Virus record (IMG/VR): IMGVR_UViG_3300032050_000122
Strand: one strand, 5' to 3'
DNA length: 64,000 nt
Source of the DNA: a virus
The notes below the pieces were generated by a model that made no database searches, was not told the DNA's origin, and was given only the letters and a program-made list of their open reading frames with translations. Positions 3,015 to 53,126 of the stretch are shown here, piece after piece (position 1 is the first letter of the stretch; each line of letters starts with the position of its first letter). A program made the position numbers and the translations under genes.

Positions 3015-4094
3015 TCACTGTTGAAACTTTCGGTGGTACCGTGCTTCCTTCGGGATACCGTCATCGGTGAGTTCACGGTAACGGAACGTAACCTGACTCC
3101 CCCTTGGAAACAATGGATTGTTAATCCAGTCAGGAACTTCTTTCTCTGGGTTGCAAATTGCCCACTCTTTGGCATAGACGATATTCTTGCCTTTGAGTTC
3201 ACGCTCGGCATCTGTGAACCCTGACAATTCGAGTCTTTTCCCGTTGAAGTTCGTAATCAGGGCACCCATCTTGCCGAGCAGTTTGCTGCCCTTATCGGTC
3301 TCTCGGCCAGTTGTGTAGCCCGTAACGATTGCTTCCGCATCATTGAAGTCTTTCACCTTCAAGATGTTGTAGCTACGTTTCGGTTCCCAACTTGCCGATG
3401 GCTTGCGAAGCATGATGCCTTCGCCGCCCTGGTCAACAACAGAATCCAACAACCGATTCAACTCGGTTACTGCGGCTGGCGTCGAAAACGGCATACGCCA
3501 CTGTGTATGTACTTGAAGATTTTCGGTGATCTTCAAGTTGCTACACAGATAGTTATGAACTTCTTCATACGATGACAACGGCGGCATGATTCCTGTGAAG
3601 TTTGCTTGCCACCAAGGGTAGCAACCTCGCAGAAACACCTTGTACGCTTGTACCGAGATGTCGCCATCTTGGAACAAAGAGTATGGCCAAGGCATGTCAA
3701 ACACCATGTATCTGACATTTCGCCAGCCCGAACCAGGGTTATGATCCTTGACCGTGGCTTGATTCGTCTGGAAGTTTCCACGACCAGACCACAATTCGCC
3801 ATCCAAACAAAAGTTTGGAAGTTGGTCAAGAAACCAATCCGGAGCGTAGATCACGTTACCATAACGTGACCACAGACCCGTGGCAATCACTTCGTTGACA
3901 CGAATGTGATCCTTCTCGGTGTTGGCATACGGAACTTGAGACGCGGGTTTACCACGACTTGCTCCGCCGTCCCAAAAAGCCCGCATACCATCTAATTTTT
4001 CGCTAGCAAACCAGCCAGCCGGCGAGTGCTTCTTCGGATCGTAAACATGAGCAAGTTGAACGTACTCACGTTTCAAAAGATTACGACTGGCCAT
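3015..4094 (-). CDS. ATP-dependent DNA ligase (phage T7/Chlorella-virus-type nucleotidyltransferase)
   Basis: 359 aa with motif I KLDGMRA (KxDGxR), motif III FCLDGELW, motif IV EGIMLRK and motif V LKVK. Confidence 0.8.
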   Translation of the reverse strand: MASRNLLKREYVQLAHVYDPKKHSPAGWFASEKLDGMRAFWDGGASRGKPASQVPYANTEKDHIRVNEVIATGLWSRYGNVIYAPDWFLDQLPNFCLDGELWSGRGNFQTNQATVKDHNPGSGWRNVRYMVFDMPWPYSLFQDGDISVQAYKVFLRGCYPWWQANFTGIMPPLSSYEEVHNYLCSNLKITENLQVHTQWRMPFSTPAAVTELNRLLDSVVDQGGEGIMLRKPSASWEPKRSYNILKVKDFNDAEAIVTGYTTGRETDKGSKLLGKMGALITNFNGKRLELSGFTDAERELKGKNIVYAKEWAICNPEKEVPDWINNPLFPRGSQVTFRYRELTDDGIPKEARYHRKFQQ

Positions 4095-4332: not shown

Positions 4333-5154
4333 TTAGATGTTTGAAGGTTTTTCATCGGATTCCATATGCCAAGGGCAACTAAAACTGCCGGCGTGCTTGT
4401 GGCCACCGCCGCCGAATCGGGTACAGATTTCGCTAACGTCCATGCCGTTGGGATCGGAACGCAGCGAGTAGCAGAAACGCTTCTCTTTGTCCTTGTTCCA
4501 CCAGACGATTGCGAAAGGTTTGCCCTTTGCAAGTTCGCCGCCGATTTCCGATTGCAGGACGGTGGAGTTCACCATCGGAACTTTGTGACCCTCAAACTCG
4601 ATCTCGGTTGCCTGACTTACAGCTTTTTGAATCAGTTTCTCTTGGTACCGAAGGATTGATAAGCCTTGCGATGTACATAGAGTATGCCCTAGCTTGGTCA
4701 GCATTTCGCAATTGGCCATGCTAAAAGCATAAGACTGGATGCACGCATCGATCTCTTTGGACCGTGGAAGTTCCCATTTCCACAAATCACGGTCTTGGAT
4801 ATAAGGCAGAATCCACGGTGCTTCAAGGGTTGGATTGTAATATTCCCATGTGAGCATAGCACCGCACTTGTCAACGTCGTAGACATACTCAAACGGGTAC
4901 GACGGTACGAACCCTTCCATTTTGATTCTGGAAGATTTGTGGTGGTCGAGGATTTTGAGGGATTTATATTTGGCAGATTCCAGAGTCGCCCGATCAGGAC
5001 AGTAATCGACGCAAATTACGTCGTGGCCATCCAATGAGGGAATGCTGGTTTGGTAATAGACTGGAACCAAATCTGCTGTCAAATTGTGGAGATGAGCGTA
5101 ATAGGCCGCGAAGATTCCGTCGGCACAATTAGCATGGTAAAGGATGGTCGTCAT
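4333..5154 (-). CDS. DHH/DHHA1 family phosphoesterase (NrnA/RecJ-like)
   Basis: 273 aa with YHANCADG (motif I), ILDHHKS (DHH motif III) and the C-terminal DHHA1 signature FGGGGHKHA. Confidence 0.8.
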   Translation of the reverse strand: MTTILYHANCADGIFAAYYAHLHNLTADLVPVYYQTSIPSLDGHDVICVDYCPDRATLESAKYKSLKILDHHKSSRIKMEGFVPSYPFEYVYDVDKCGAMLTWEYYNPTLEAPWILPYIQDRDLWKWELPRSKEIDACIQSYAFSMANCEMLTKLGHTLCTSQGLSILRYQEKLIQKAVSQATEIEFEGHKVPMVNSTVLQSEIGGELAKGKPFAIVWWNKDKEKRFCYSLRSDPNGMDVSEICTRFGGGGHKHAGSFSCPWHMESDEKPSNI

Positions 5155-5616: not shown

Positions 5617-7053
5617 TTACATATACTCGCGTGCCCGAATGAAGTCGATGATTGCCTCGCTCCATCCACTGATGTGGACGAACTTGTTGTAGCCGATTCC
5701 ATTCTCATTGCAACTGATGTTGATGAGATAGTTGGAATCACCGAAGGCGTTTGCCTGAGACGGATCGAGCTTGCTGCCAGGAGTCTGGCAATCTTGCTCG
5801 TCCGTGATGACGATGACGCGGTCAGCCGTTCGCTGTTCCTGATAGACATAGTCCATGACTTGTTTCAGGAAGATGCCACCAGTACCGATTTGGTGCTGGA
5901 GTTGCAACTCACTGAACAGTCGAGACAACTCGAAACCACGCCGAGCCGGAATCTGCATCGTTGCATGACGCCGTGCCGAATCGCTACCGGCGGTAGCATA
6001 GATGACCGGATTTTCGGCGATCTCTTTGACGAGAATCGCCAACGCACCAGCGGCATCAAGACGCGACAGGTCGCTCTTGGCCGAGACCTTGCCCTGAGTC
6101 ATGGACCCCGAGGAATCCACGATCAGAACCGTCTTGCCGGGGAGCTTCGGAATCGTTTGGAGACAGCGAAGCATCATGTCTTCGATCATGTTCTGCCATG
6201 CCGGAACCGCACGGTAAGCCGCGATGAACCGGAAGGGAAGCACACGACCCAAATCAACATGCTTCGAGTACTCGACGACGAGTTCCTTGGCCACGCCGCT
6301 CTGTTCCATGTTGCGGAGATTCCGCAGGAACGCCAACGCACCGAGCTTGCCCTCTCTCATCAGACGCGTGAACGTCTCGCACTTGTCGGCTCCCGCAGAA
6401 AGCTCAACTTCCCAAGTATCGGGAGTCTTGAGAGTGCCTTCTGCCAACTTGTGGTAGAGGGAATCGGTGTGTCGTAGCAGGGACTTGGAGTGACCGTCTT
6501 TGTAAGTACGGTGCTTGATGGTGGCGGGGCCAACGTCAGCCGGTTTCGGATGACAGAGGAACATGGCGTCCCGGAGTTTGACCGCTCCATCACGATTATA
6601 CTTAGCCAAGGCGTACTCATTGAAGTTCCCGAAGGCTTTCGCCAGTCCTTTCTTGACTTGGGCAGAAATCGGGCACTTGCCATCTTTCCAGTAGATGGCA
6701 AGGAATTCTGCCAACTCGTCAGCACGCTGGATGATTTCCGGGAGCAGGTCTTTCACCAGTCCCTTGTGGCTATCCAGCCGAGCCATTTCACGTGCAATCA
6801 ACAACGGTACGTGCCGCAGTTTCTGATTCGTTCGGGCGTCGATCGCCATGTTCGCGACCTTCTGCGGATCGACCTGTTTGATGAGGCTCGCAATCCGCTT
6901 GGCGATCTTCTCGCCAGTTTCGTAGAACGTGTCTTCCCACAACATGCACGCCATCACGGATCGCCGAAGTTGTTCTTCGGGACTGACGTTGCTGGCGATT
7001 GCTCCGCCGTGGGTACGCTTGACAAGCTTGGGTGCCTTCACATTCGTCTTCAT
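5617..7053 (-). CDS. rsr: Ro60/Rsr ortholog (TROVE domain plus vWA domain)
   Basis: TROVE-like N-terminal region (HGGAIASN..., LRDAMFLCHPKP resembling the Ro60 LRLSHpKP motif) and C-terminal vWA domain with the Ro60-type MIDAS LIVDSSGSM. Start chosen at MKTNVKAP because of the strong RBS (AGGAGAgcatcATG); the ORF track extends to 7170. Confidence 0.75.
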   Translation of the reverse strand: MKTNVKAPKLVKRTHGGAIASNVSPEEQLRRSVMACMLWEDTFYETGEKIAKRIASLIKQVDPQKVANMAIDARTNQKLRHVPLLIAREMARLDSHKGLVKDLLPEIIQRADELAEFLAIYWKDGKCPISAQVKKGLAKAFGNFNEYALAKYNRDGAVKLRDAMFLCHPKPADVGPATIKHRTYKDGHSKSLLRHTDSLYHKLAEGTLKTPDTWEVELSAGADKCETFTRLMREGKLGALAFLRNLRNMEQSGVAKELVVEYSKHVDLGRVLPFRFIAAYRAVPAWQNMIEDMMLRCLQTIPKLPGKTVLIVDSSGSMTQGKVSAKSDLSRLDAAGALAILVKEIAENPVIYATAGSDSARRHATMQIPARRGFELSRLFSELQLQHQIGTGGIFLKQVMDYVYQEQRTADRVIVITDEQDCQTPGSKLDPSQANAFGDSNYLINISCNENGIGYNKFVHISGWSEAIIDFIRAREYM

Positions 7054-7241
7054 GATGCTCTCCTGGGATTGACAAAGCCACAGTTCATTGCGAAGCTCAT
7101 GACTTTTATAGTCCATGCTCCACAATTCCTGACCCATGACACTTATGGGTCTAATCATCGCTGCTTCCATTGTCTTATTCTTGTTTCTGCCGGAGTAATT
7201 GCTACTCGACGGCTACCACCGAATTTCTTTGTTAATTCAAT

Positions 7242-7323: not shown

Positions 7324-7866
7324 TCAACTCCGTGGCAAATGCCAGACTGGGATGTTCGGTGGCAAGTAGCCCGAATAAAAAGCTTCTGCCCCGATCAAAT
7401 CACGCAGGAGTTTTAATGATTGGCGTCTCACTGTGACATAGTAGTAATCACACTGAGCGTCACGAACCGTGTCCCACACTTGGTACAACTGGTCCGTCTC
7501 AACGATTGCTTCACGTATCACATCCGCGTGGAACAAGTCTACTTCCAGCCTCTTGTTCAAGTCATTGCGAAATGACCGATTCAATGCCAGAAAGTCATTC
7601 AGTGTTTTACGCGTTGGATACCGGTTACACTCACCCAATTGTGGGTAAGACAGAAACTCTTCATTACGGCCCCTCAGCATCTCAAGATCAGTGTTTGGGT
7701 CTTGAGTGAGTAGGAAGGAATGTTCCCGCGGATCAAGAATCTCGCTATCAAGAGCGAGAGCCAGAATCGTTGGCCGTAATACCTCGATCCATGCAACGTC
7801 AACAGGTGGCGAGTCTTTCGAAGCCGTCAATAAGGCGGCTGCTAAGACAATCTCACAAGTGAACAC
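7324..7866 (-). CDS. hypothetical protein
   Basis: ORF track gives 7324..7908, which runs into tRNA-His. An in-frame GTG at 7866 is preceded by GGAGGG at a 7-nt spacing, giving about 180 aa. Confidence 0.45.
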   Translation of the reverse strand: MFTCEIVLAAALLTASKDSPPVDVAWIEVLRPTILALALDSEILDPREHSFLLTQDPNTDLEMLRGRNEEFLSYPQLGECNRYPTRKTLNDFLALNRSFRNDLNKRLEVDLFHADVIREAIVETDQLYQVWDTVRDAQCDYYYVTVRRQSLKLLRDLIGAEAFYSGYLPPNIPVWHLPRS

Positions 7867-7881
7867 ATAGATACCCTCCAG

Positions 7882-7958
7882 GGTGGTCGACGGGATTTGA
7901 ACCCGCAACCGCCGGAATCACAATCCGGTGCTCTGCCAGTTGAGCTACGACCAACATG
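7882..7958 (-). tRNA. tRNA-His (anticodon GTG)
   Basis: D-arm GCUC-AACUGGCA-GAGC, anticodon loop UUGUGAU, T-arm GCGGG-UUCAAAU-CCCGU, extra 5' G (G-1) opposite C73; one acceptor mismatch. Confidence 0.7.
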
Positions 7959-7993
7959 AATTTGCGGGAACAAGCGGAACGGCTGCTGCCCTT

Positions 7994-8044
7994 TCGGGCG
8001 ATCAAACCATCTTTGAAGTAACCGTTTCCTAACGCCACGCAAAC
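7994..8044 (-). promoter_or_regulatory. repeat unit copy 1 (box A 8015-8044 plus box-B-like 7994-8006) upstream of tRNA-His
   Basis: Minus strand GCGTGGCGTTaggaaaCGGTTACTTC then GGTTTGATCGCCCGAAAG; member of the repeat family at 8.0-11.6 kb. Confidence 0.5.
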
Positions 8045-8159
8045 ATTAAAGTGGGGAACAATCGCTGTAGTTAGCCGGTATCGAGCCGGCACCCTTGCGG
8101 GTTTCAAACCAAGAAGTAGCTACAACTATCACCACCACAAGAAGCATTAGAGGGATAAT

Positions 8160-8280
8160 AATCGACAACAGGGGTTGGTCTTTTGCTCTACCCACTGAGC
8201 TACAATCCATCCCGAGGGACTTCATGGCGGGATTCGAACCCACGACCTAAAGAAGTAACTGTTATCTACGCCACTCTAAT
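8160..8280 (-). ncRNA. candidate YrlA-like ncRNA: box A, then T-arm, hairpin and D-arm (permuted tRNA-like module), then closing stem and box-B-like
   Basis: Minus strand GAGTGGCGTAGATAACAGTTACTTC (8276-8252); T-arm GUGGG-UUCGAAU-CCCGC (8243-8227); hairpin GUCC-cucg-GGAU; GGAUUGUA plus D-arm GCUC-AGUGGGUA-GAGC (8200-8185); CUGUU (8171-8167) pairs with the AACAG of box A. No anticodon arm and no matching acceptor 3' strand. Confidence 0.45.
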
Positions 8281-8364
8281 AAGGTGCCGACGGCAGGATT
8301 CAAAATGGAGAGCCTGCGAAACAGGATCGTATCACCTGTGGTTAACCGCACAGATTACCACCCC

Positions 8365-8387
8365 GCTAAAGGGTGTGGCCACACCCC
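8365..8387 (-). terminator. possible weak terminator hairpin after the kinase gene
   Basis: Perfect palindrome GGGTGTGGCCACACCC followed by only UUU on the minus strand. Confidence 0.3.
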
Positions 8388-8409
8388 GTCCGCGTTCGTC
8401 GGCCTGATT

Positions 8410-8847
8410 TCATGCTAAGAACACTTCTTGATTCCAATAGGAAGGAACAATTTGTTCTTGAAGGTTCTTATGCATTGCCAAAATTGTGTTGACCGGTACC
8501 TTGTGCGTATTTCTACGCATTGCACGACTAACCGGACACATGTGGTACTTGATCACGTAATCGTGGCCTAATGCTTGAGCGATTCTGACATATGGAGCTA
8601 GTTCCATGAGAGTTGTGTTTGTGTTATCCACAATAAAAAGTGGACAGCGTTTCTCAACGAAGACCGCCGAGATGTAACAACGCAAACACCAATCATGAGC
8701 CTCACCCGCACGCTTAGGGTCGTACTGGTAAATACCATTGACTGTGTGAAAGTCATCAGCCGAGAAGATTTCACAATCTTCACCAGCATAGTTCTTCACA
8801 TAAGTTGATTTACCTGACCCAGGCAATCCTCGCATGATCCAGATCAT
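8410..8847 (-). CDS. P-loop kinase (polynucleotide kinase-like, AAA_33 type)
   Basis: 145 aa starting MIWIMRGLPGSGKSTYVKNY (Walker A) and resembling the T4 Pnk kinase domain N-terminus; RBS AAGGAAAG precedes the ATG. Confidence 0.65.
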   Translation of the reverse strand: MIWIMRGLPGSGKSTYVKNYAGEDCEIFSADDFHTVNGIYQYDPKRAGEAHDWCLRCYISAVFVEKRCPLFIVDNTNTTLMELAPYVRIAQALGHDYVIKYHMCPVSRAMRRNTHKVPVNTILAMHKNLQEQIVPSYWNQEVFLA

Positions 8848-8934
8848 GGTCTTTCCTTAAAAAGTTAATTGGTCCAGAGCCTTCACGGTAACACACCGTG
8901 GCCTGCCCAGCTTAAGCACTCTGGACCAAAAGGT

Positions 8935-9000
8935 ATCGGGGATTAAATCGGTCACAGCTTTTTCTAAGCATGAAGTAACCGTGACCAACGCCACCGAAAG
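8935..9000 (-). promoter_or_regulatory. repeat unit copy 3 (box B 8935-8948, hairpin, box A 8972-9000) upstream of the kinase gene
   Basis: Minus strand CTTTCGGTGGCGTTGGTCACGGTTACTTC ... GCTGTGACCG ATTTAATCCCCGAT; the GGTCAC/GTGACC stem covaries with other copies. Confidence 0.55.
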
Positions 9001-9004
9001 TTTG

Positions 9005-9265
9005 TTACTTGGGCTTCCACTCTTCGGGAATCTTTTCCTTGTCGTTGAAGATGTTGCCCATTCGAATCTTCCAGTCTTCACCTTCGGGAAGACCAGCATG
9101 GCGATACATGGTATCACCCACCATACGCCAAACTCCTGCCTGGGATTCCGGCGGCACGTAAGCCGCTCGTTGCATGATTTGTTTCAAGTCGTTGGCCAAC
9201 GCGACTTCCGTCGGCGGCAGAACTTCTTGAATGACAAACTTCACCAATCGATCAAGGTCTCGCAT
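9005..9265 (-). CDS. hypothetical protein
   Basis: 86 aa; RBS AAGGAAAAG upstream of ATG at 9265. Confidence 0.5.
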   Translation of the reverse strand: MRDLDRLVKFVIQEVLPPTEVALANDLKQIMQRAAYVPPESQAGVWRMVGDTMYRHAGLPEGEDWKIRMGNIFNDKEKIPEEWKPK

Positions 9266-9284
9266 GATTCTTTTCCTTAATAAG

Positions 9285-9402
9285 AGCGGGGATTAAACGA
9301 AATCAGTATTTAGTCCCACACTTGCGGGTTTACGGCCCGTAGTTGTGGGGCTTCTCCGGTCATGGTGGGGAAGTAACTGATCTCAAACGCCACCGCAAAA
9401 AG
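9285..9402 (-). promoter_or_regulatory. repeat unit copy 4 (box A 9370-9402, long structured loop, box B 9285-9298)
   Basis: Minus strand GCGGTGGCGTTTGAGATCAGTTACTTC ... ACTGAT ... GTTTAATCCCCGCTC; ATCAGT/ACTGAT stem. Confidence 0.5.
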
Positions 9403-9403
9403 A

Positions 9404-9682
9404 TCACTTCGTGGGAATCGGCTCAAGCGGACTCGTCGCCAAATGAATGGCAACGTGGTGAATCTTGTTGGTTTCTTTGTCAATGACCCACGACTCCTGC
9501 TCCTGGTAGAACCGATTCAGTTCGAAGATCGCTTCGATCGATTCGAGCCACCACCAAGAGGTTTCGCCTTCGTCGGCAACACCGATCAACCAGCGTGCAT
9601 CGGCGGGCTTACGCCCCACGAATCCTGACACGCGGGAAATTCCTTTGTAAACGACGTTGTCGTATTTCGTTTGCATGTTCAT
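9404..9682 (-). CDS. hypothetical protein
   Basis: Start moved to MNMQTKYD (ATG at 9682) because the longer ORF would run through the upstream repeat unit; RBS AAGGAAatgaacATG. Confidence 0.5.
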   Translation of the reverse strand: MNMQTKYDNVVYKGISRVSGFVGRKPADARWLIGVADEGETSWWWLESIEAIFELNRFYQEQESWVIDKETNKIHHVAIHLATSPLEPIPTK

Positions 9683-9697
9683 TTCCTTAAAAGAAGT

Positions 9698-9763
9698 ATC
9701 GGGGATTAAACGCTTAGGGTTGGCACTTTTAACAGAAGTATCCCTTAGCATACGCCACCGATG
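9698..9763 (-). promoter_or_regulatory. repeat unit copy 5 (box A 9735-9763, hairpin GCTAAGGG/CCCTAAGC, box B 9698-9711)
   Basis: Minus strand CATCGGTGGCGTATGCTAAGGGATACTTC tgttaaaagtgccaa CCCTAAGC GTTTAATCCCCGAT, then RBS and ATG. Confidence 0.55.
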
Positions 9764-9912
9764 ATTGTGAGCCTGGACTGCCATTCATTTATTTAACGCC
9801 CCGGTCCTGGCACCTGGTGCGTCTAACTCTGACGTTCCCATGTAACGCCACGCGAGTGTTGGGTTTTGCTAACCATAAGTGACCACACCAACAGGCCACC
9901 CTTCGATTCCTC

Positions 9913-10161
9913 CTAGAGTTGACCAGCGAGGTACAACAAAGCCGCCTTGAACGCCGCTCGATTGCTGCCGGGCGTCTTGGGAATTTCGTCCATCTTGTTT
10001 GTCATCTCTTTGTAGAGACGGGTCTGTTCGACATCCATCTCTTCGTGAGTCGCGTTCGGTTTCGATTCATACAACTGAAAGAACGTGACGATGGCACTGA
10101 GCGTTTTCAACTGCTGAGCCATCTCTAGGGACAGCGTCAGAATCAAAAGTTCCTTGAGCAT
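9913..10161 (-). CDS. hypothetical protein
   Basis: 82 aa; RBS AAGGAAAtgtctcATG. Confidence 0.5.
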   Translation of the reverse strand: MLKELLILTLSLEMAQQLKTLSAIVTFFQLYESKPNATHEEMDVEQTRLYKEMTNKMDEIPKTPGSNRAAFKAALLYLAGQL

Positions 10162-10188
10162 GAGACATTTCCTTTCGAGAAAGAATGG

Positions 10189-10347
10189 TTAAGGTTCAAC
10201 TGATGCGATGACCCATGACGATAGGACATCAAGGATTCTGTCGGCTTCGTCTTCCGACGTTTCTTGTCCAACGGTTTCCCATTCACCGTGAACAAAGACT
10301 TCAATATGCCAGTTGCCAGAATCGTCGTCCAATCGTTTTCGAATCAT
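10189..10347 (-). CDS. hypothetical small protein
   Basis: Start at MIRKRLDD (GGAG RBS) rather than 10401, which would overlap the upstream repeat unit; 52 aa. Confidence 0.4.
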   Translation of the reverse strand: MIRKRLDDDSGNWHIEVFVHGEWETVGQETSEDEADRILDVLSSWVIASVEP

Positions 10348-10423
10348 CTTGAAACTCCAAAACAGGGGCAAGTAACTAGCGTCAGAACCCCGATGACCCA
10401 ATTACCTACCCCTGTGATTCAAA

Positions 10424-10492
10424 ATCGGGGATTGTTCGCTACGGCTTTTCGTGCAAAGGTAGAAGTAACCGTAGCAATCGCCACCGAAAAAG
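10424..10492 (-). promoter_or_regulatory. repeat unit copy 6 (box A 10462-10492, hairpin GCTACGG/CCGTAGC, box B 10424-10437)
   Basis: Minus strand CTTTTTCGGTGGCGATTGCTACGGTTACTTC ... CCGTAGC GAACAATCCCCGAT. Confidence 0.55.
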
Positions 10493-10628
10493 CATGTACT
10501 CACGTTATCTGTTATTCTCTTCGACCTTCGGCATCATGCGTACTTTCCGAGTCAGACCACGCCGTGAGTACAACCCCATCCTCAAAAGGCAGGGGCGGGC
10601 CAGATGGGGACGGAACCCTTCTCCAGCA

Positions 10629-10838
10629 TCAGGCCGACTTTGCAGTCAGCTTATCCATGTACTTGGCCTTGTTCACGACGCCCCGACGAATCGAAGCGAG
10701 AACTTGGTTGGCACGTTTGACATGCCGTTCCGTGTACGTCTTACCGGCGAACTTCTCGGCGATGACACCTGCATCAAGCAGGGCACCGTCTTTGTCTCGA
10801 CCGAACTTGCTGACATTGGCTTTCGTGATGTTAATCAT
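10629..10838 (-). CDS. hypothetical protein
   Basis: Likely starts at MINITKANV (69 aa). The longer 10629..11003 frame overlaps a better-supported gene in another frame. Confidence 0.35.
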   Translation of the reverse strand: MINITKANVSKFGRDKDGALLDAGVIAEKFAGKTYTERHVKRANQVLASIRRGVVNKAKYMDKLTAKSA

Positions 10839-10872
10839 GGTTAGTGATTCCAATGAGTGTTGGGAAACGGGT

Positions 10873-11124
10873 TTAGGACGCCAGAAGATACACGCCGCGA
10901 GGCTTGTCGAAGACGATGGTCGCGATGACCACTGACTCCTCAACCTCGATGCCTTCGTCATTTTTGACCATTCGATTTTCCTTGACAACCTGTTGGTCGC
11001 CAAAGGCTTTCTTCACATTGGCCCGTCGTTCCGTGACGGCCCGACCGCGACCCGGCCAGATTCCACGAAGGGTAGCTTGACCGTGCTTGCGGCACTTGTC
11101 GATCAGAACTTGCACTTCATTCAT
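10873..11124 (-). CDS. hypothetical protein
   Basis: 83 aa; strong RBS AAGGAAAGtttcATG. Confidence 0.5.
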   Translation of the reverse strand: MNEVQVLIDKCRKHGQATLRGIWPGRGRAVTERRANVKKAFGDQQVVKENRMVKNDEGIEVEESVVIATIVFDKPRGVYLLAS

Positions 11125-11153
11125 GAAACTTTCCTTAAGTAAAGGGACCAGTG

Positions 11154-11221
11154 GGGGCCCGAGGATTTGAACCTCATCTCTGAGTTAAACTCAGGCTCTG
11201 CCAAGTTAAGCTAAAGCCCCA
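11154..11221 (-). tRNA. tRNA with atypical anticodon arm (possible anticodon UUA; or a 5-nt loop)
   Basis: D-arm GCUU-AACUUGGC-AGAGC and T-arm UGAGG-UUCAAAU-CCUCG. Anticodon arm CUGA-GUUUAAC-UCAG gives UUA with a 4-bp stem; the alternative is a 5-bp stem with loop UUUAA. Acceptor has a mismatch and GU pairs. Confidence 0.45.
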
Positions 11222-11224
11222 AAT

Positions 11225-11293
11225 CGGGGAACAAACGATTACGGGGTCACATCAACCAAAAGAAGTACCCGCAATCAAACGCCACCGAAAGCA
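11225..11293 (-). promoter_or_regulatory. repeat unit copy 7 (box A 11264-11293, hairpin GATTGCGGG/CCCCGTAATC, box B 11225-11238) upstream of the UUA tRNA
   Basis: Minus strand CTTTCGGTGGCGTTTGATTGCGGGTACTTC ... CCCCGTAATC GTTTGTTCCCCGAT. Confidence 0.5.
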
Positions 11294-11366
11294 CGACCGG
11301 GTGGAATCGAACCACCAACCTACGGTTTTGGAGACCGTCGCTCTGCCAATTGAGCTACTAGCCGCG
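11294..11366 (-). tRNA. tRNA-Trp (anticodon CCA), acceptor stem does not pair as read
   Basis: D-arm GCUC-AAUUGGCA-GAGC, anticodon arm ACGGU-CUCCAAA-ACCGU, T-arm GGUGG-UUCGAUU-CCACC. The 5' CGGCUAG and 3' CGGUCGU are not complementary, so this may be a pseudo-tRNA or I have misread the boundaries. Confidence 0.5.
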
Positions 11367-11374
11367 TTGTGTCC

Positions 11375-11492
11375 GGGATTAAGTCGAATCAGTATAGCAT
11401 CCTACCATTAGACGACGAAGGCAAGCCCTCGGTGGGATTCGAACCCACATCTCTTCTTTGACATAGAAGTAACCGATTCTAAACGCCACGGA
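11375..11492 (-). ncRNA. candidate YrlA-like ncRNA: box A, then T-arm, closed acceptor-like hairpin and D-arm, then stem and box B
   Basis: Minus strand CCGTGGCGTTTAGAATCGGTTACTTC (11492-11468); T-arm GUGGG-UUCGAAU-CCCAC (11450-11434); hairpin CGAGG-gcuugc-CUUCG; UC; D-arm GUCU-AAUGGU-AGGA (11415-11402); GAUUC pairs with the GAAUC of box A; TTAATCCCGG (11386-11375). Confidence 0.45.
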
Positions 11493-11567
11493 ACTAAGAA
11501 CCAGGGATTAACTGAGTCGGTGCCGCTGTTGCCAAATCTTGCGGCCTCAACACCCTTGCGGATGCTG

Positions 11568-11637
11568 ACAGGATTCGAACCTGCAATTACTTATGAAGTA
11601 TCCGATTCAATCGCCACTGGTAAGTTGTCAGACGATC
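11568..11637 (-). ncRNA. tRNA-like element: acceptor-like stem, box A in place of the D and anticodon arms, and a T-arm
   Basis: Minus strand CUGACAAcuuacCAGUGGCGAUUGAAUCGGAUACUUCauaaguaauuGCAGG-UUCGAAU-CCUGUCAG; box-B-like TTAATCCCTGG at 11514-11503. Confidence 0.35.
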
Positions 11638-11831
11638 ACCACGAGCAGGCCGAGCAGGAACGCGATTTCGTCGGGATGTTCATTCACCACGACGCATTCC
11701 AAATCGGAGTCGACATCGATTCGAGTCCGATTCCCATACTCATCGTCCGCCGGAAGTGGGACCAGAGCGAGGATCATTTCCGGACGAAGCCAAATCGAGT
11801 GGCCAGTCATCGTGCAAGTCAGACGAATCAT
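11628..11831 (-). CDS. hypothetical protein
   Basis: 67 aa, RBS AAGGAA; its 3' end overlaps the tRNA-like element. Confidence 0.35.
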   Translation of the reverse strand: MIRLTCTMTGHSIWLRPEMILALVPLPADDEYGNRTRIDVDSDLECVVVNEHPDEIAFLLGLLVVIV

Positions 11832-11854
11832 GCTGCGTTCCTTAAATGGAGGGT

Positions 11855-12181
11855 TCAGATCAACTCAAGCAGGAACTCTACAGTAAGTTCCAGCCGGTTA
11901 ATCCATTCTTTTGCTTCCGCGAGTTCCTGACACTTTCGCGTCAGTTCCGAATCGTACCCTTCGGGCCGATCCGCAAGTGCTTTCTTGAGCTTATCTCGAA
12001 GATGGCTCAGTTGTTTGGTTTGCATCGCAATGCCTTCATCGCGACGAGCAATCATCTCTTCCATCCGGTTGATTTGAAGCTGACGATCGGTGAGCTTCAT
12101 CATGTGATTCTTGAGCCGCTGACGCATACCCTCAAGAGCCTTAGCTTGGTTCAAAATCACAAGATCATCGGCTGCACTCAT
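11855..12181 (-). CDS. hypothetical coiled-coil protein
   Basis: 108 aa, heptad-rich. Confidence 0.45.
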   Translation of the reverse strand: MSAADDLVILNQAKALEGMRQRLKNHMMKLTDRQLQINRMEEMIARRDEGIAMQTKQLSHLRDKLKKALADRPEGYDSELTRKCQELAEAKEWINRLELTVEFLLELI

Positions 12182-12387
12182 TTGAGCATCTCATAAGTGT
12201 CACCCGCTACAGCAACGGGTATGTGGCGGAGAACCTCGTTCGGGTCCATATCGTTGGCTGCACAACGATTAACAGCGGCGTCAAGGTCGGTCATGATTCC
12301 CCAGGGAGTCACAATCCAAACCGCAAACGAGGTAATCGGAATCGGCCGACCAGTCAACGTGACTGTCTTTGCAACAAGGTCGATCAT
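12178..12387 (-). CDS. hypothetical protein
   Basis: 69 aa, 4-nt overlaps with both neighbours. Confidence 0.45.
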   Translation of the reverse strand: MIDLVAKTVTLTGRPIPITSFAVWIVTPWGIMTDLDAAVNRCAANDMDPNEVLRHIPVAVAGDTYEMLK

Positions 12388-12758
12388 AGGATCAGTTGTC
12401 CTGTTCGGTTGTTGACGGCAATCTTGATTTCACCGTCGAGTTTGGGTGTACCAATCGGGGCGTACGATTCATCCCCTGCGTTGTGTAGCGTGGCACCTGT
12501 CATGGCATCCTTACCTACGACCTCAGTGGGATCAATTACCTTTTTGCCCGGCAAGTATTTGTCAGGGCCACCCTTCTTCATGATTCCACCAAAGCAGGAC
12601 ATGCAGACTTCATAGCCAAAGCCGTCCTTACCACGTTTGAGAATCTTGTAGGGCTTGTCCTTTAAGGACTTGTTGCACATCTTGTTGGCACAACGTCCCT
12701 TACTTTTTGGCGGCTTGAGACTGATTAGCAAGGCGATCCCTCCGTTTTTGTGTTCCAC
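12384..12758 (-). CDS. hypothetical protein (Cys-rich, possible zinc binding)
   Basis: 124 aa with CxxxC...CxxC. Confidence 0.45.
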   Translation of the reverse strand: MEHKNGGIALLISLKPPKSKGRCANKMCNKSLKDKPYKILKRGKDGFGYEVCMSCFGGIMKKGGPDKYLPGKKVIDPTEVVGKDAMTGATLHNAGDESYAPIGTPKLDGEIKIAVNNRTGQLIL

Positions 12759-12845
12759 GCATCAAGGCCCAGTAGCCCGGCACCCAAGGTGTCGGAATCT
12801 TGGCCAGAATTTTTTGCGAATCTTTCACGTCTTTGCAACGCATGG

Positions 12846-12950
12846 TTAACGTCCTTTGATGTTCATGATCAAGACTACGACGCCAACAATCAGGAACGAC
12901 ACGCCCAAGATTATGGCAACAGGCAAACTCATGGTCGGGTTGAGCATCAT
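12846..12950 (-). CDS. possible 34-aa single-TM miniprotein
   Basis: Not on the ORF track (under 60 aa). MMLNPTMSLPVAIILGVSFLIVGVVVLIMNIKGR with GGAG RBS 7 nt upstream, immediately downstream of the tRNA-like element. Confidence 0.3.
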   Translation of the reverse strand: MMLNPTMSLPVAIILGVSFLIVGVVVLIMNIKGR

Positions 12951-12966
12951 AACAAATCTCCAAGTT

Positions 12967-13032
12967 GCGGGGGTGGGCTTCGAACCCACAAACAGGTAGC
13001 TAGCCTTCGCTTTGCCAGTTAGCGTACCCCGC
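12967..13032 (-). ncRNA. tRNA-like element lacking an anticodon arm
   Basis: Acceptor GCGGGG/CCCCGC, 3-bp D-arm CGC-UAACUGGCAAA-GCG, T-arm GUGGG-UUCGAAG-CCCAC, but only AAGGCUAGCUACCUGUUU where the anticodon arm belongs; about 66 nt. Confidence 0.4.
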
Positions 13033-13307
13033 GATAATCCCTCTGGGACCGTAAATCCCAGAGGGCGATAAGCCGGGACGTAGCCCGGTACAAATTGTAC
13101 TCTATCTAACCGAAAAGCACCAGCGGTGTGTTCCGCAAGAATTTAGGTGCCTTCGGCCGATTCTTGCTCCATCGAAAACCTACAACCCAGGACTTTACGG
13201 GTCTCTTGGGCGTCGATAGGCTCAAGGCCGAGTTTGGCGGATAGCCGTAAGCAGACAGCAGACAAACTAAGACGGCTCCGCCGATCAAATCGAACAAGGG
13301 CGACTCC

Positions 13308-20101: not shown

Positions 20102-20365
20102 TCACTTCTTGATCAGAGCCAGGATGGCATTGATCACGGTTTGCAAATCCAACTTCTGGCCAGAGAACAGACTGAGAACAAGCGGCAAGAGAACCGCCAA
20201 AATCGTCACCAATCCGACGCCCTGAGCTTGTGCCTGCTTGACGGCTTCACTGAGCTTTGTCTCGGCGTCGCGACCGTACTGGTACGCAACGCTCTTCAAA
20301 AGCATTCGCAGCGTTCCCTGTTGATTTGCACCGACGACACCTGCAAGGTGTTGAGCTTCGATCAT
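20102..20365 (-). CDS. small membrane protein
   Basis: 87 aa with a hydrophobic segment (VGLVTILAVLLPLVLSLF). Confidence 0.4.
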   Translation of the reverse strand: MIEAQHLAGVVGANQQGTLRMLLKSVAYQYGRDAETKLSEAVKQAQAQGVGLVTILAVLLPLVLSLFSGQKLDLQTVINAILALIKK

Positions 20366-21525
20366 TTATCCTTCTCCAAGTAAGTTGCTCCGACACACTT
20401 GAGACACAAGCGTCCCAAGTGAATGTCAGTGCGTTCAACAATCGGTTTGACCACGCAGCCCTCACGATAGTGCTGTGCAATCAAAGATTGACCGTCGCTC
20501 AAGTTCACAACCAGATCGAAGCTGTAATCGTGAACGCCAAGGAATGGCACCCACGGTACATCCGGTGCCGCGTCGCGAGCTTCTTGAGCATTCAGCCAGC
20601 GGCCGTCGTCAAGAATGTCGAACACAGCAATCGAGACTGGCTTGTCTTGAGTGTGGCCGTACTTCAAGGTCTGCACGTTGCCGTAGACTTCACCGTACAA
20701 AATCTTTCCCGGATTATCACGGCACCACTTCTCAATTTCCGGTTCATGGCTCAACGCCGTCCACCACATGTTCCGCGACTTTGTCGGAGAATGTAGGCGA
20801 TCGAAAATCTGTTGACAGCGTTCTTCATCAGGGATGTTTGTGTCCTTGTTCAGAACACGTTCCCGCAACCAATTCATTGTGATATGGTCATAGGTCGGGA
20901 ACTCTTTCTTCCACTCGGTCCGAGAACCACAGTGCATCACACCGTCTTGATAGACGTACCGTGCGTTAGCTCCGTGAATCTTCTCGGTGATCCAAACCTT
21001 CTCGCCAGGAATCAACAAGTGATGATACTTGCGGAAGGCATCGAGATCGTACTTCGGACTGTTGAGGCTTGGAGCCTTGGCAACTTCACCGCCAAGAATC
21101 AAGCCGTTTGCTGCTCGCTGCTCACCTGGCATCGGCGGTTCGTAGTGAGTGACGCCCAACTGCTGAGCAACGTCTTGACCCAAGACGCTACCTTCCGGTG
21201 CCGGAATCATCAGACCAAACGAAACAACACCACGCAGCTTCATAGCCTTGACGCGGTGTGTACCATCAGCCTTGGCTTTTGGCATGAGGAAGTCGAACTC
21301 TTTCCGGTTTGTGTCCACCACCGAATCAGGCGGAAGATACGCACCAAGAGCGACACCTTGCCAGTCTTGGGTTCGGACGATACAGGTGTATCCGCCGAAG
21401 ACTCGAACGATACTGAGCGAATCAGCGTTTGGGTGCTTGGTCAATTCGATTGGCACAATCTCCACCTGATGTGTGCTATTTGACATGGTGCTTACCTCGT
21501 TTGTTGAGTTCCCTGATTTCATCAT
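20362..21525 (-). CDS. ATP-dependent RNA ligase (Rnl2/Rnl5-DraRnl type, KxHG)
   Basis: 387 aa; nucleotidyltransferase motif I ITEKIHGANARYVY (KIHG as in T4 Rnl2) preceded by an N-terminal OB-like domain. Confidence 0.65.
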   Translation of the reverse strand: MMKSGNSTNEVSTMSNSTHQVEIVPIELTKHPNADSLSIVRVFGGYTCIVRTQDWQGVALGAYLPPDSVVDTNRKEFDFLMPKAKADGTHRVKAMKLRGVVSFGLMIPAPEGSVLGQDVAQQLGVTHYEPPMPGEQRAANGLILGGEVAKAPSLNSPKYDLDAFRKYHHLLIPGEKVWITEKIHGANARYVYQDGVMHCGSRTEWKKEFPTYDHITMNWLRERVLNKDTNIPDEERCQQIFDRLHSPTKSRNMWWTALSHEPEIEKWCRDNPGKILYGEVYGNVQTLKYGHTQDKPVSIAVFDILDDGRWLNAQEARDAAPDVPWVPFLGVHDYSFDLVVNLSDGQSLIAQHYREGCVVKPIVERTDIHLGRLCLKCVGATYLEKDK

Positions 21526-51800: not shown

Positions 51801-52086
51801 GGATGTCGCGTGTGTTGTAAATCGTTTTGATCGAACCATCTGTATCGCTCAATGTAATCGAGACGGACTGTGAGTTCGACGCATTCGAGATATTCACAAC
51901 ATCATCAAGGTTAGCCAACTTGAGAATCTTACCTTGTAACTGCGGCACAGCTTGATGCGCACCGCGATCACAATAGTATTGGGGCGGACGGTTCTCCCCA
52001 TCCCAAAAGATTGCTACAACGACGAGTGGTTCCCCACCCAGCTTTGTAGTAATCTGCGTCAATGCTGCTGTTGAGATATTTTTCAT
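48877..52086 (-). CDS. large tail/baseplate (fiber or hub-like) structural protein
   Basis: 1069 aa immediately downstream of the distal tail genes. Confidence 0.45.
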   Translation of the reverse strand: MKNISTAALTQITTKLGGEPLVVVAIFWDGENRPPQYYCDRGAHQAVPQLQGKILKLANLDDVVNISNASNSQSVSITLSDTDGSIKTIYNTRDIHKKKVLIYQWFTQLNFNDKFVIFEGVINSPIVWVEVNRTMSFDIVSQLEDAEIGFSPEEGDFPQLDDSVIGKAWPMPFGTCLKVPSVSLDLVGNATLMDSIGLHDPKLEADLQNLFMAKQFSDAYAQALYTAGSVLQTNSAGMGEDVGPFEQNPDDPDYQQGQGMMDSATKLLNEGQRMLDSVSAITQQIEAQKKFEKDSVILFNGQSFPMGVPATFEIGELIVTGVISALPSSPRGDSILNITSITPKKPFLTHVEVGESSVEKYTSANVSDKSEFGFPDNFIADMGLVTEIDITKKAADKIIVDSNPGFVFVKAGTRIKWVSDLPMRWVAAMLPCAVLGVYAIRDYDGTKLMTAVPTNYYTVSYQNFVAGDGGPGVTATMITLKQPLSYINDIELVTADTGTGIVRTTTSSVNGQHVRDENKKTYFNLSRDSSFSSGWEDQIYVDLISPVGPNTADILQYLIHTYSGVPYPAAPFDCDTTSFNTVRAQLGAFPMHFCLFERKNLFDALKEIAFQARCAIWLKEDIFYLLYLVPEGAPVDSIDLCDIEEKTLEIHHTTTEELVTKFVASYKVFYGPQTGFAASDVGSKDNKIILRANMAKYGCHEQTYNYYAYTNTRLVDLSSTFWIIRKANTWKLVKFKTPLHKLRLETFDSVTIDLRAVSDEPVVGVVQSASLDSDAMEIDFSVWVPVRIGEMHKYPGANPDKFFFYPDINDEVGSQNVGETAGGDISSSGRPPADEPMEFEDGRDRPHDGSPNPGAEELNPIVSPEVENSIGELAEEKPDLYPPVNQNFDLSTNPQVVNTSAIPAKIRRVSNKGLPEYLLDSYPKGVGKKSVISKAIDASYDRDNPVKHEPGMWVMIQPLMWTDKVTTELPSTTSGDSTAGRRTQTTTKQSVQRYFLPTGGTSTYPGVVTGGSAGTYTVNIYKSGLTGAATSVTVKQLQIAGGESIPSGTWALVSKGPSGEYTMQVPVWL

Positions 52087-53126
52087 TGTAGTACCTGAAA
52101 GTCAAACTCGACCTCGTAAGAGCCGCAGTTTTTGTCGTTGGTGCATACCACTTGCGCATCAGGAGTGATAATGATTCCGTTCCACACCACTCCAAAATGA
52201 TCCGTTAATTGGACACTCAGTCCAATTGTGTCAGCAAAGAATCGAAGCAACTCTTGACTTCTATTCCGAGTCAAGTTGGTGAACTTGAACTTAAGAATCT
52301 CAGTAATCGACCATATCGGGTCACGAAAGATAATCGTGTCCCCACCGCGTGTTTGATCTTTAACACGCTTGAGACTGATACTGTCAATGTCCCCAAGCTC
52401 TGGTACTACAAGAGTAACAGTTGTTGAGCCGTAAGTTAAAATTACTGGCCCGTATACAAGCGAATCTGACGGTACATTAACGGGAATATTTGCAGACGGA
52501 GACGGTACAACAATGTTGAACGTCTTGACAGCGTCTTTCTTGAAGTAAGAGACGCTTTGCGTAATCGTCAAAGACGTAGTTGCTGGGGCTGTATAAGTTC
52601 CAACAAGGACTACAGCTTGTGAAACTGTCAGCGTGCTTGCAAGTGCACGAGAAGGAACAACACTATGAGTAATCGCCAAGCCTTGAATAACCGCTTGAGG
52701 GTTTACACTCGCAGCTTGCTGTGTGATTACCAGTGCCGTCGCAGCTTCAATGTTGTAAGTTGGAGCCGCAGTTTGAGTCAGGCTCAAAATATTGACGACA
52801 TCAAGATTCAAAATTTGTGTAACAGCAACTGCCTGTGACACATTGAATGGTTGATTCGTGCTTACGTTCTGATGCGAACATTGTACCGATTGAGTTAGGT
52901 ACAAAGGCTGTTCAACAATCTGGCCGATGATTCCCGAGTCTGGGTCGCCTTGCGTAATCGGCAAGAACTGGGCGACGCTGATATTGATGATCGCCATTAG
53001 ACAACTCCAGTAGAAAGCGGAAGGAGAAGGATTCGAACCTCCGGATGCCATAGGCATCGCCGGTTTAGCAAACCGGTACAATAAGCCACTCTGCCATCCC
53101 TCCGAAAAGAGGGACCGTGTTGCCAC
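52083..53126 (-). CDS. tail protein with internal TQ-rich repeats
   Basis: 347 aa with repeated LTITQSV / VAVTQIL-like segments. Confidence 0.4.
   Translation of the reverse strand: MATRSLFSEGWQSGLLYRFAKPAMPMASGGSNPSPSAFYWSCLMAIINISVAQFLPITQGDPDSGIIGQIVEQPLYLTQSVQCSHQNVSTNQPFNVSQAVAVTQILNLDVVNILSLTQTAAPTYNIEAATALVITQQAASVNPQAVIQGLAITHSVVPSRALASTLTVSQAVVLVGTYTAPATTSLTITQSVSYFKKDAVKTFNIVVPSPSANIPVNVPSDSLVYGPVILTYGSTTVTLVVPELGDIDSISLKRVKDQTRGGDTIIFRDPIWSITEILKFKFTNLTRNRSQELLRFFADTIGLSVQLTDHFGVVWNGIIITPDAQVVCTNDKNCGSYEVEFDFQVLQ

What the first reader, a model, noticed from the sequence alone, without database searches (positions are those of the whole stretch)
11154..11221. tRNA whose anticodon arm reads as UUA (ochre-reading) or has a 5-nt loop
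The D-arm and T-arm are canonical, but the anticodon region CUGAGUUUAACUCAG folds either as a 4-bp stem with loop GUUUAAC (anticodon UUA, which would decode UAA/UAG) or as a 5-bp stem with a 5-nt loop. Neither form is standard. Genes here end with ordinary TAG and TAA stops, so a suppressor would not be needed for a recoded genome. It could be a regulatory or late-gene readthrough tRNA, a decoy, or non-functional.
Basis: seen in the sequence. Interest (0 to 1): 0.55.

Follow-up and report, generated by a model that had tools for sequence, protein, structure and literature searches.

The report
Broken lysine tRNA gene in phage
The odd "stop-codon-reading" tRNA is a phage lysine tRNA gene that lost two bases from its anticodon loop, so it is most likely a recently acquired, decaying tRNA copy and not a designed suppressor.

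Summary
It is a 68-nt tRNA-shaped gene whose anticodon hairpin CUGAG-UUUAA-CUCAG has a 5-nt loop. It scores as a tRNA in Rfam (34.7 bits, cut-off 29). ARAGORN misses it by default and calls it tRNA-Stop(UUA) only when relaxed.

Related uncultivated phage contigs (L067-L070) carry a homolog, 83% identical over 89 nt including short flanks. That copy is a normal-looped tRNA-Lys(UUU) with loop AUUUUAA. The window copy differs by a 2-nt deletion inside the loop, plus an extra C at the discriminator. "UUA" is therefore a by-product of the deletion. The 7-nt-loop form that would present UUA costs about 3-4 kcal/mol and is under 1% populated.

The cassette is absent at this site from eight sister lineages, with the breakpoint exactly at G1. 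TAA ends about 40% of ORFs. No ortholog compared is interrupted by a stop.

Best reading: a recently inserted, non-decoding tRNA-Lys relic. Its cloverleaf is fully intact, so a non-decoding role (RNase P processing signal, decoy) is not excluded.

Context: it sits in an array of nine Y-RNA-like elements next to a Ro60 gene, which is more interesting than the tRNA itself.

The parts
11154..11221 (-). tRNA-Lys(UUU)-derived tRNA-like gene, 68 nt. G1 is at 11221 and the discriminator C at 11154.
   Evidence: Rfam RF00005 34.7 bits. ARAGORN calls it tRNA-Stop(tta) only at -ps90. 83% identical over 89 nt to tRNA-Lys(UUU) of L067.
11215..11221 (-). Acceptor stem, 5' strand GGGGCUU. It pairs with 11155-11161.
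   Evidence: 7 bp, two of them G-U. The 5:68 pair is C-G here and U-A in L067, a compensatory change.
11196..11212 (-). D arm GCUU-AACUUGGCA-GAGC, with A14, G18, G19 and A21. No N26 follows it.
   Evidence: Read from the sequence; Rfam alignment. L067 has the same architecture.
11181..11195 (-). Anticodon hairpin CUGAG-UUUAA-CUCAG. The 2-nt deletion relative to the L067 loop AUUUUAA lies between 11191 and 11190.
   Evidence: Alignments A3 and A5. The G31-C39 pair has probability 0.993. The 4-bp/7-nt-loop form is 3.0-3.9 kcal/mol less stable.
11162..11176 (-). T arm GAGG-UUCAAAU-CCUC: a 4-bp stem with a canonical 7-nt loop.
   Evidence: The 4-bp stem is shared with L067.
11154..11161 (-). Acceptor stem 3' strand GGGCCCC plus discriminator C. 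The C run is one base longer than in L067 and in strain variant L051/L058, where the discriminator is A.
   Evidence: (A5).
11141..11153 (-). 3' trailer ACUGGUCCCUUUA, which came in together with the tRNA. It is homologous to the trailer of the L067 tRNA-Lys and absent from sister lineages.
11223..11290 (-). Y-RNA-like hairpin element ending directly at the 5' end of the tRNA-like gene. It is present in L008 and L071 without the tRNA.
10873..11124 (-). 83-aa gene immediately downstream. Its orthologs were used to find the sister lineages.

Best explanation
The element is a copy of a compact phage tRNA-Lys(UUU) gene. It arrived as a small cassette (tRNA plus about 13 nt of trailer), inserted immediately after a Y-RNA-like element and upstream of an 83-aa gene, and only in this phage lineage.

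It has two lesions relative to its intact homolog. Two nucleotides are deleted from the anticodon loop (AUUUUAA to UUUAA). In most strains one extra C has been added at the discriminator position.

With a 5-nt loop closed by a G-C pair (or a UUA triloop), the RNA cannot present a normal anticodon. It most likely no longer decodes anything, whether lysine codons or stop codons. It is probably still transcribed and processed like a tRNA, because the acceptor, D and T arms and the tertiary-contact nucleotides are intact.

Shown: the homology, the deletion, lineage-restricted presence, the energetic preference for the closed loop, and the absence of stop-interrupted genes. Inferred: loss of decoding function, and expression or processing.
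For: - Homology: 83% identity over 89 nt including flanks to L067 3253-3340. ARAGORN at default settings calls that copy tRNA-Lys(ttt). Rfam scores it 45.1 bits with a perfect 5-bp stem and 7-nt loop AUUUUAA.
- Lesions: the alignments place a clean 2-nt gap inside the loop and a 1-nt C-run difference at the discriminator.
- Lineage distribution: the cassette is absent at this site from L008/L001/L066, L071, L072, L073-76, L077/78, L080/81, L082/83 and L084. The breakpoint falls exactly at G1.
- Not an assembly error: the sequence is identical in at least 8 independent assemblies.
- Energetics: the form presenting UUA costs +3.0 to +3.9 kcal/mol, and G31-C39 has pairing probability 0.993.
- No demand for suppression: TAA ends 33 of 82 crude ORFs, and 91% of the window is coding under the standard code. 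No orthologous gene over window 100-23660 is interrupted by an in-frame stop.
- Detection scores: ARAGORN default makes no call, and the Rfam score is 10 bits lower than for the intact homolog.
Against: - All 20 base pairs and all 9 tertiary-contact nucleotides are intact across 8 substitutions relative to L067, one of them a compensatory double change. Random substitution would achieve this in only 0.2-1.3% of trials. Either the lesions are very recent or the fold itself is still under selection.
- All strains sampled are nearly identical, so there is no direct measure of constraint after the deletion.
- No expression or charging data exist.
- The intact homolog is itself unusual (no N26, 4-bp T stem), so ordinary rules for tRNA function may not apply strictly.
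Confidence: 0.7

Rival explanations
1. It is a non-decoding but functional tRNA-like RNA, kept for its fold. One version: RNase P and 3'-end processing signals that separate the upstream Y-RNA-like element from the downstream mRNA. Another version: a decoy or sponge for a host enzyme that targets tRNA-Lys(UUU), such as an anticodon nuclease of the PrrC or PARIS type.
For: - The cloverleaf and tertiary nucleotides are fully preserved despite 8 substitutions.
- It starts 0-1 nt after the 3' end of a Y-like element. Two other Y-like elements in this clade are followed within 5-6 nt by tRNA-Trp and tRNA-His.
- RNase P is known to cleave a tRNA-like Y RNA (PMC4201824).
- tRNA-Lys(UUU) is a known target of phage-defence nucleases (PMC10264068).
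- The phage carries an RNA ligase and an AAA_33 kinase.
Against: - Sister lineages have the same Y-like element followed directly by the gene, with no tRNA, so it is not needed for processing there.
- Only 5 of 63 Y-like elements across loci are followed by a tRNA, all in this one clade.
- There is no second lineage with a truncated loop.
- The discriminator C-run is polymorphic.
- Nothing shows that an anticodon nuclease would bind a 5-nt loop.
Confidence: 0.17
2. It is a working ochre (UAA/UAG) suppressor tRNA. It would use a 4-bp anticodon stem and the 7-nt loop GUUUAAC, giving programmed readthrough of some phage genes.
For: - ARAGORN at -ps90 draws exactly this structure and calls tRNA-Stop(tta).
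- U33 and A37 are in place in that drawing.
- Lysine tRNAs are a classical source of ochre suppressors (E. coli supG/supL; from my own knowledge).
Against: - The triplet arises from a deletion, not from an anticodon substitution.
- The required conformer is disfavoured by 3-4 kcal/mol and would have G32-C38 poised to pair.
- The arm would be one base pair short, and N26 is absent.
- TAA is the stop of about 40% of ORFs, including the tape measure, Ro60 and primase genes.
- No gene is interrupted by a stop relative to relatives that lack the tRNA.
- The closest relatives do without it.
Confidence: 0.05
3. It is part of a Y RNA: a tRNA-like module belonging to the upstream Y-like element, as in YrlA.
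For: - It abuts a Y-like element.
- The window encodes Ro60 and YrlA-like RNAs.
- A weak alternative pairing exists between the Y element's 5' arm and the tRNA's T-stem/acceptor 3' strand.
Against: - In YrlA-type RNAs the tRNA-like module is circularly permuted (T arm, closed acceptor hairpin, D arm) and sits inside the closing helix (Rfam alignment; PMC4201824). Here the order is that of a normal tRNA, with open ends, and the Y element's own closing helix is complete before the tRNA starts.
- The Y element exists without the tRNA in sister lineages.
Confidence: 0.03

Closest known systems
Phage-encoded tRNA-Lys(UUU), specifically the compact tRNA-Lys of related uncultivated Ro60 phages (L067-L070)
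   Same: Same acceptor, D, anticodon-stem and T-arm sequences and the same trailer. Both lack N26 and both have a 4-bp T stem.
   Different: The window copy lacks 2 nt of the anticodon loop and has an extra C at the discriminator. It sits upstream of the 83-aa gene; the L067 copy sits downstream of it.
tRNA pseudogenes and tRNA gene fragments in prokaryotic and phage genomes (e.g. PMC9897764, seen in the listing only, not read)
   Same: A tRNA-derived sequence that scores near detection thresholds and carries a lesion incompatible with decoding.
   Different: It is full-length with every stem intact. Only the loop and the discriminator are damaged, which suggests a very young relic or one kept for its fold.
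Lysine-tRNA-derived ochre suppressors (E. coli supG/supL) and natural suppressor tRNAs of stop-recoded phages (crAss-like, Lak); from my own knowledge
   Same: A UUA triplet can be read in a lysine-tRNA background.
   Different: Those have a normal 5-bp stem and 7-nt loop with a substituted anticodon, and recoded phages show ORFs interrupted by the reassigned stop. Here the loop is shortened by a deletion and no ORF is interrupted.
YrlA tRNA-like Y RNAs (Rfam RF02553; Chen et al. 2014, PMC4201824)
   Same: A non-decoding tRNA mimic encoded near Ro60. The window holds YrlA-like RNAs within 3 kb.
   Different: YrlA is circularly permuted and closed by a Ro60-binding stem. The candidate has normal tRNA topology and no Ro60-binding motif.

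Membership tests
Canonical elongator tRNA (Rfam RF00005) | Covariance-model score at or above the gathering threshold | tested here: met
   34.7 bits against 29. The anticodon arm is poorly aligned.
Canonical elongator tRNA (Rfam RF00005) | 7-bp acceptor stem, D loop with A14/G18G19/A21, T loop UUCRANY | tested here: met
Canonical elongator tRNA (Rfam RF00005) | 5-bp anticodon stem closing a 7-nt loop with U33 and a purine at 37 | tested here: not met
   It has a 5-bp stem with a 5-nt loop, or a 6-bp stem with a triloop. The 4-bp/7-nt alternative is 3.0-3.9 kcal/mol less stable.
Canonical elongator tRNA (Rfam RF00005) | 5-bp T stem and a nucleotide 26 between the D and anticodon stems | tested here: not met
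   4-bp T stem and no N26. The intact homolog shares both features.
Canonical elongator tRNA (Rfam RF00005) | Called by ARAGORN at default stringency | tested here: not met
   No call at default or at -ps95; called from -ps90 down.
Ochre suppressor tRNA | Anticodon UUA at positions 34-36 of a 7-nt loop | tested here: inconclusive
   Possible only if G31-C39 opens. That pair has probability 0.993. ARAGORN draws this form at -ps90.
Ochre suppressor tRNA | Genes with in-frame TAA/TAG that need readthrough, or depletion of TAA as a terminator | tested here: not met
   TAA ends 33 of 82 ORFs. No stop-interrupted orthologs over window 100-23660.
Ochre suppressor tRNA | Aminoacylation and decoding of UAA in vivo | not testable with these tools
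   Needs tRNA-seq, a charging assay or a reporter.
Phage tRNA-Lys(UUU), L067 type | Sequence homology across the whole tRNA and its flanks | tested here: met
   83% over 89 nt, E = 7e-20; alignments A3 and A5.
Phage tRNA-Lys(UUU), L067 type | 7-nt loop AUUUUAA presenting UUU | tested here: not met
   2-nt deletion.
Phage tRNA-Lys(UUU), L067 type | Discriminator A73 | tested here: not met
   It is C in the window and in most strains. It is A in the L051/L058 variant and in L067.
YrlA / Y RNA tRNA-like module (RF02553) | Permuted order (T arm, closed acceptor hairpin, D arm) inside a Ro60-binding closing helix with a GNCGAA-like motif | tested here: not met
   Normal tRNA order with open ends and no such motif.
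tRNA pseudogene | Derived from a functional tRNA family, carries lesions incompatible with decoding, and is dispensable in close relatives | tested here: met
tRNA pseudogene | Relaxed constraint (broken stems, polymorphism) | tested here: inconclusive
   There is one indel polymorphism at the discriminator, but no broken pairs. The strains are too similar to measure constraint.

The most novel reading that the evidence does not exclude
A lysine-tRNA-derived RNA whose anticodon loop has been cut down to 5 nt is kept on purpose as a non-decoding tRNA mimic in a Ro60/Y-RNA phage. In one version it is an RNase P punctuation mark that releases the adjoining Y-like RNA and the downstream mRNA. In another it is a decoy for host nucleases that attack tRNA-Lys(UUU).
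Probability: 0.15. Interest if true: 0.55.

Novelty: new member of a known kind. Interest (0 to 1): 0.25.

Why it matters
For annotation, permissive tRNA finders will label this gene a suppressor (tRNA-Stop/Sup-UUA), which could wrongly suggest stop-codon recoding in this phage group. The comparison shows it is a lysine tRNA with a loop deletion.

Biologically it captures tRNA turnover in progress. A small tRNA cassette was inserted into a hypervariable tRNA/Y-RNA region of a Ro60-encoding phage and has already been damaged.

If the intact fold turns out to be under selection, it would be an example of a tRNA gene converted into a non-decoding tRNA mimic, in a genome that already invests heavily in tRNA-like Y RNAs.

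Tried and rejected
- Exact and degenerate DNA patterns of the element found nothing in viral contigs or genome contigs. blastn of the intact homolog against GenBank phages also found nothing.
- The single metagenome-contig scan, using an alignment of the 83-aa protein, returned only the already known L008 contig.
- The weak Rfam 'skipping-rope' hit at 11424-11555 (19 bits, E = 0.52) was dropped. It is not significant, and that family is linked to DUF3800 genes (PMC5737381).
- The sigma-70 promoter and terminator scan of 7800-12000 gave no more sites than shuffled sequence.
- A first tblastn test for stop-interrupted orthologs was swamped by off-frame and antisense ORFs. It was replaced by a test using a greedy gene set.
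- A search for same-frame ORF pairs separated by TAA gave only ordinary adjacent genes.
- I tested whether tRNAs generally follow Y-like elements. Only 5 of 63 do, all in one clade.
- tRNAscan-SE was not available.

Full report
**1. What is there**

On the minus strand, 11221..11154, lies a 68-nt sequence:

GGGGCUUUAGCUUAACUUGGCAGAGCCUGAGUUUAACUCAGAGAUGAGGUUCAAAUCCUCGGGCCCCC

Its parts are:
- a 7-bp acceptor stem (two G-U pairs)
- U8 and A9
- a D arm with A14, G18, G19 and A21
- no nucleotide 26
- the hairpin CUGAG-UUUAA-CUCAG
- a 4-nt variable loop
- a 4-bp T stem with the canonical loop UUCAAAU
- a discriminator C

Rfam's tRNA model scores it 34.7 bits (gathering score 29), with a badly aligned anticodon arm. 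ARAGORN finds 12 other tRNAs in the window but not this one at default stringency. At 90% stringency it draws a 4-bp stem (plus a C·A mismatch) with loop GUUUAAC and calls tRNA-Stop(tta). RNAfold gives a cloverleaf with a 6-bp anticodon hairpin and a UUA triloop.

The refinements are that the gene is on the minus strand, the T stem is short, and N26 is missing.

**2. Where it comes from**

GenBank phages hold no close relative of the region. Neighbouring proteins led to related uncultivated phage contigs.

In one lineage (L067-L070, where the 83-aa neighbour is 70% identical), a sequence 83% identical over 89 nt, short flanks included, lies just downstream of the ortholog of the 83-aa gene. 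ARAGORN at default stringency calls that copy tRNA-Lys(UUU). Rfam scores it 45.1 bits, with a perfect 5-bp anticodon stem CUGAG/CUCAG and the 7-nt loop AUUUUAA. It also lacks N26 and has the 4-bp T stem, so those two oddities are family traits.

The window copy differs from it in three ways:
- 8 substitutions
- a clean 2-nt deletion inside the loop (AUUUUAA to UUUAA)
- one extra C in the 3' C run, which turns the discriminator from A into C

One strain variant (L051/L058) still has the shorter C run and discriminator A. The "UUA anticodon" is thus what remains of UUU-A after the deletion, not a substituted anticodon.

**3. Distribution**

The element is identical in at least eight independent assemblies of near-identical strains from JGI, ENA, Logan and NCBI, so it is not an assembly artefact.

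It is absent at this site from all other lineages found: L008/L001/L066, L071 and L073-76, L072, whose 83-aa protein is the closest at 81%, L077/78, and L080/81, L082/83 and L084. In L008 and L071 the alignment is collinear up to ...CCCCGAUUU and resumes at the ribosome-binding site of the 83-aa gene. The window has the tRNA plus a 13-nt trailer in between, and the 5' breakpoint falls exactly at G1.

One insertion in this lineage is far more parsimonious than many independent losses. The tRNA set in this hot spot differs between lineages (Arg, Met, Asn, Ile, Phe, Trp, His), so cassette turnover is the norm here.

**4. Can it decode?**

With ViennaRNA energies, the cloverleaf that presents UUA in a 7-nt loop is 3.0 kcal/mol less stable than the 5-bp/5-nt-loop form and 3.9 kcal/mol less stable than the triloop form. 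The G31-C39 pair has probability 0.993. In the open form the anticodon arm would also be one base pair short, and G32/C38 could pair.

There is no sign that the phage needs suppression:
- 91% of the window is covered by ORFs under the standard code.
- Stops are TGA 35, TAA 33 and TAG 14. TAA ends the tape-measure, Ro60, primase and other large genes.
- Over window 100-23660, no ortholog of a gene from relatives that lack the tRNA is interrupted by a stop.
- Same-frame ORF pairs separated by TAA are ordinary neighbouring genes.

**5. Is it dead or repurposed?**

All 20 base pairs and all 9 tertiary-contact nucleotides survive the 8 substitutions that separate it from L067. One change (5:68, U-A to C-G) is compensatory. 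In 200,000 random trials this happened in 1.3% (pairs only) or 0.2% (pairs plus tertiary nucleotides) of cases.

This shows selection on the fold along the path between the two copies. It cannot say whether that selection continued after the deletion, because all strains carrying the deletion are essentially identical. The second lesion (the extra C, polymorphic) points to decay.

The element starts 0-1 nt after a Y-RNA-like hairpin. In this clade two other Y-like elements are followed within 5-6 nt by tRNA-Trp and tRNA-His, and RNase P can cleave tRNA-like Y RNAs (PMC4201824). A role as a processing signal is therefore conceivable. However, sister lineages have the same Y element with no tRNA after it, and only 5 of 63 Y-like elements across loci have a tRNA after them.

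A decoy role against nucleases that target tRNA-Lys(UUU) (PMC10264068) is pure speculation.

**6. Verdict**

It is a recently inserted, loop-deleted copy of a phage tRNA-Lys(UUU) and most likely non-decoding (confidence 0.7).

| Rival reading | Confidence |
|---|---|
| Non-decoding but functional tRNA mimic | 0.17 |
| Real ochre suppressor | 0.05 |
| Part of a Y RNA | 0.03 |

It is a new member of a known kind (a degenerate phage tRNA) and of low interest in itself.

**7. Context worth a separate look**

The candidate sits in a 3.7-kb stretch (7961-11629, minus strand) upstream of a Ro60/TROVE gene (5617-7170). That stretch holds nine copies of a Y-RNA-like element. The pattern GTGGCG-N8-16-TACTTC occurs 9 times against 0.09 expected.

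The elements share a closing helix with a bulged U next to an invariant GG/CC. Three of its pairs covary, with 7-9 double changes among 24 sequences and none broken. They also share a GGCG(A/U)(A/U)NG motif resembling the GNCGAA Ro60-binding motif (PMC4201824).

- One copy is a sub-threshold Rfam YrlA hit (36 bits).
- Another copy explains the 25-bit "tRNA" hit at 11424-11486.
- The same motif lies next to Ro60 in 43 of the 78 loci fetched, with 9-11 copies in the close relatives.
- Cultured Xanthomonas/Xylella phages match one copy next to an unannotated Ro60 homolog.

Noticed in passing
window 7961-11629, minus strand (5' ends near 11625, 11497, 11293, 10492, 9766, 9401, 9002, 8282, 8046): There is an array of nine Y-RNA-like elements upstream of a Ro60 gene. 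Each has 5' ..CGG-U-GGCG(A/U)(A/U)NG.. UUACUUC, then a variable module, then ..AAUCCCCG.. at the 3' end. The closing helix has a bulged U and covaries strongly. The pattern occurs 9 times against 0.09 expected. The same motif lies next to Ro60 in 43 of the 78 loci fetched by then, with 9-11 copies in close relatives L008 and L009. Published phage and bacterial cases that I read describe about two Y RNAs per locus (PMC4201824, PMC12135203).
   Followed up: partly
window 5617-7170 (-) and 8162-8282 (-): A Ro60/TROVE homolog (517 aa) lies here, together with a YrlA-like Y RNA that has a T arm, a closed acceptor hairpin and a D arm. The YrlA hit scores 36 bits, below the gathering score of 69.
   Followed up: partly
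window 11370-11497 (-): The sub-threshold 'tRNA' hit at 11424-11486 (25.4 bits, loop AUGUCAA) is not a tRNA-Asp remnant. It is the T-arm part of a second YrlA-like element (T arm, CGAGGG/CCUUCG hairpin, D-like arm) closed by the family's bulged helix. tRNA-Trp follows it after 6 nt.
   Followed up: partly
window 12966-13032 (-): A second compact tRNA-like sequence (67 nt) has a 6-bp acceptor, good D and T arms, and only a 3-bp anticodon stem. ARAGORN calls it Ala(agc) at -ps90, and Rfam does not call it a tRNA. It occupies the position where L008 has tRNA-Met(CAU), and it is conserved in L071.
   Followed up: partly
L079 (Xanthomonas phage 10KY502B, OQ622092.1) 888-2582; also Xylella phage Usme and the Xanthomonas phages Olaya, Bolivar, Usaquen, Alcala, Fontebon and Soumapaz: Cultured Xanthomonas/Xylella phages match window 11400-11476 at about 80% in an unannotated intergenic stretch. 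The adjacent 439-aa 'hypothetical protein' is a Ro60/TROVE homolog. These phages therefore probably carry unannotated Ro60 and Y RNA.
   Followed up: partly
L067 3260-3329 (also L068-L070): The intact tRNA-Lys(UUU) of the related lineage is itself unusual. It is 70 nt long, has no nucleotide 26 and has a 4-bp T stem, yet ARAGORN calls it at default settings and Rfam scores it 45 bits.
   Followed up: partly
window 20362-21525 (-), 8410-8847 (-), 3015-4094 (-), 4333-5154 (-): A possible RNA-repair gene set lies around the Ro60 locus. It comprises an RNA ligase (PF09414 plus the PHA02142 OB fold), a small AAA_33 P-loop kinase, an ATP-dependent DNA ligase, and a weak DHHA1 hit.
   Followed up: no
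window 11100-13200 compared with L008, L071, L073, L080, L082: The tRNA content of this intergenic hot spot differs between closely related phages. Arg(CCG)+Met, Asn, Ile, Phe and Lys come and go, while Trp and His stay.
   Followed up: partly
window 52083-53126 (-) and 53017-53103 (-): The 347-aa ORF as listed (GTG start) overlaps tRNA-Ser(GCU). The real start of that gene is probably downstream of the tRNA.
   Followed up: no
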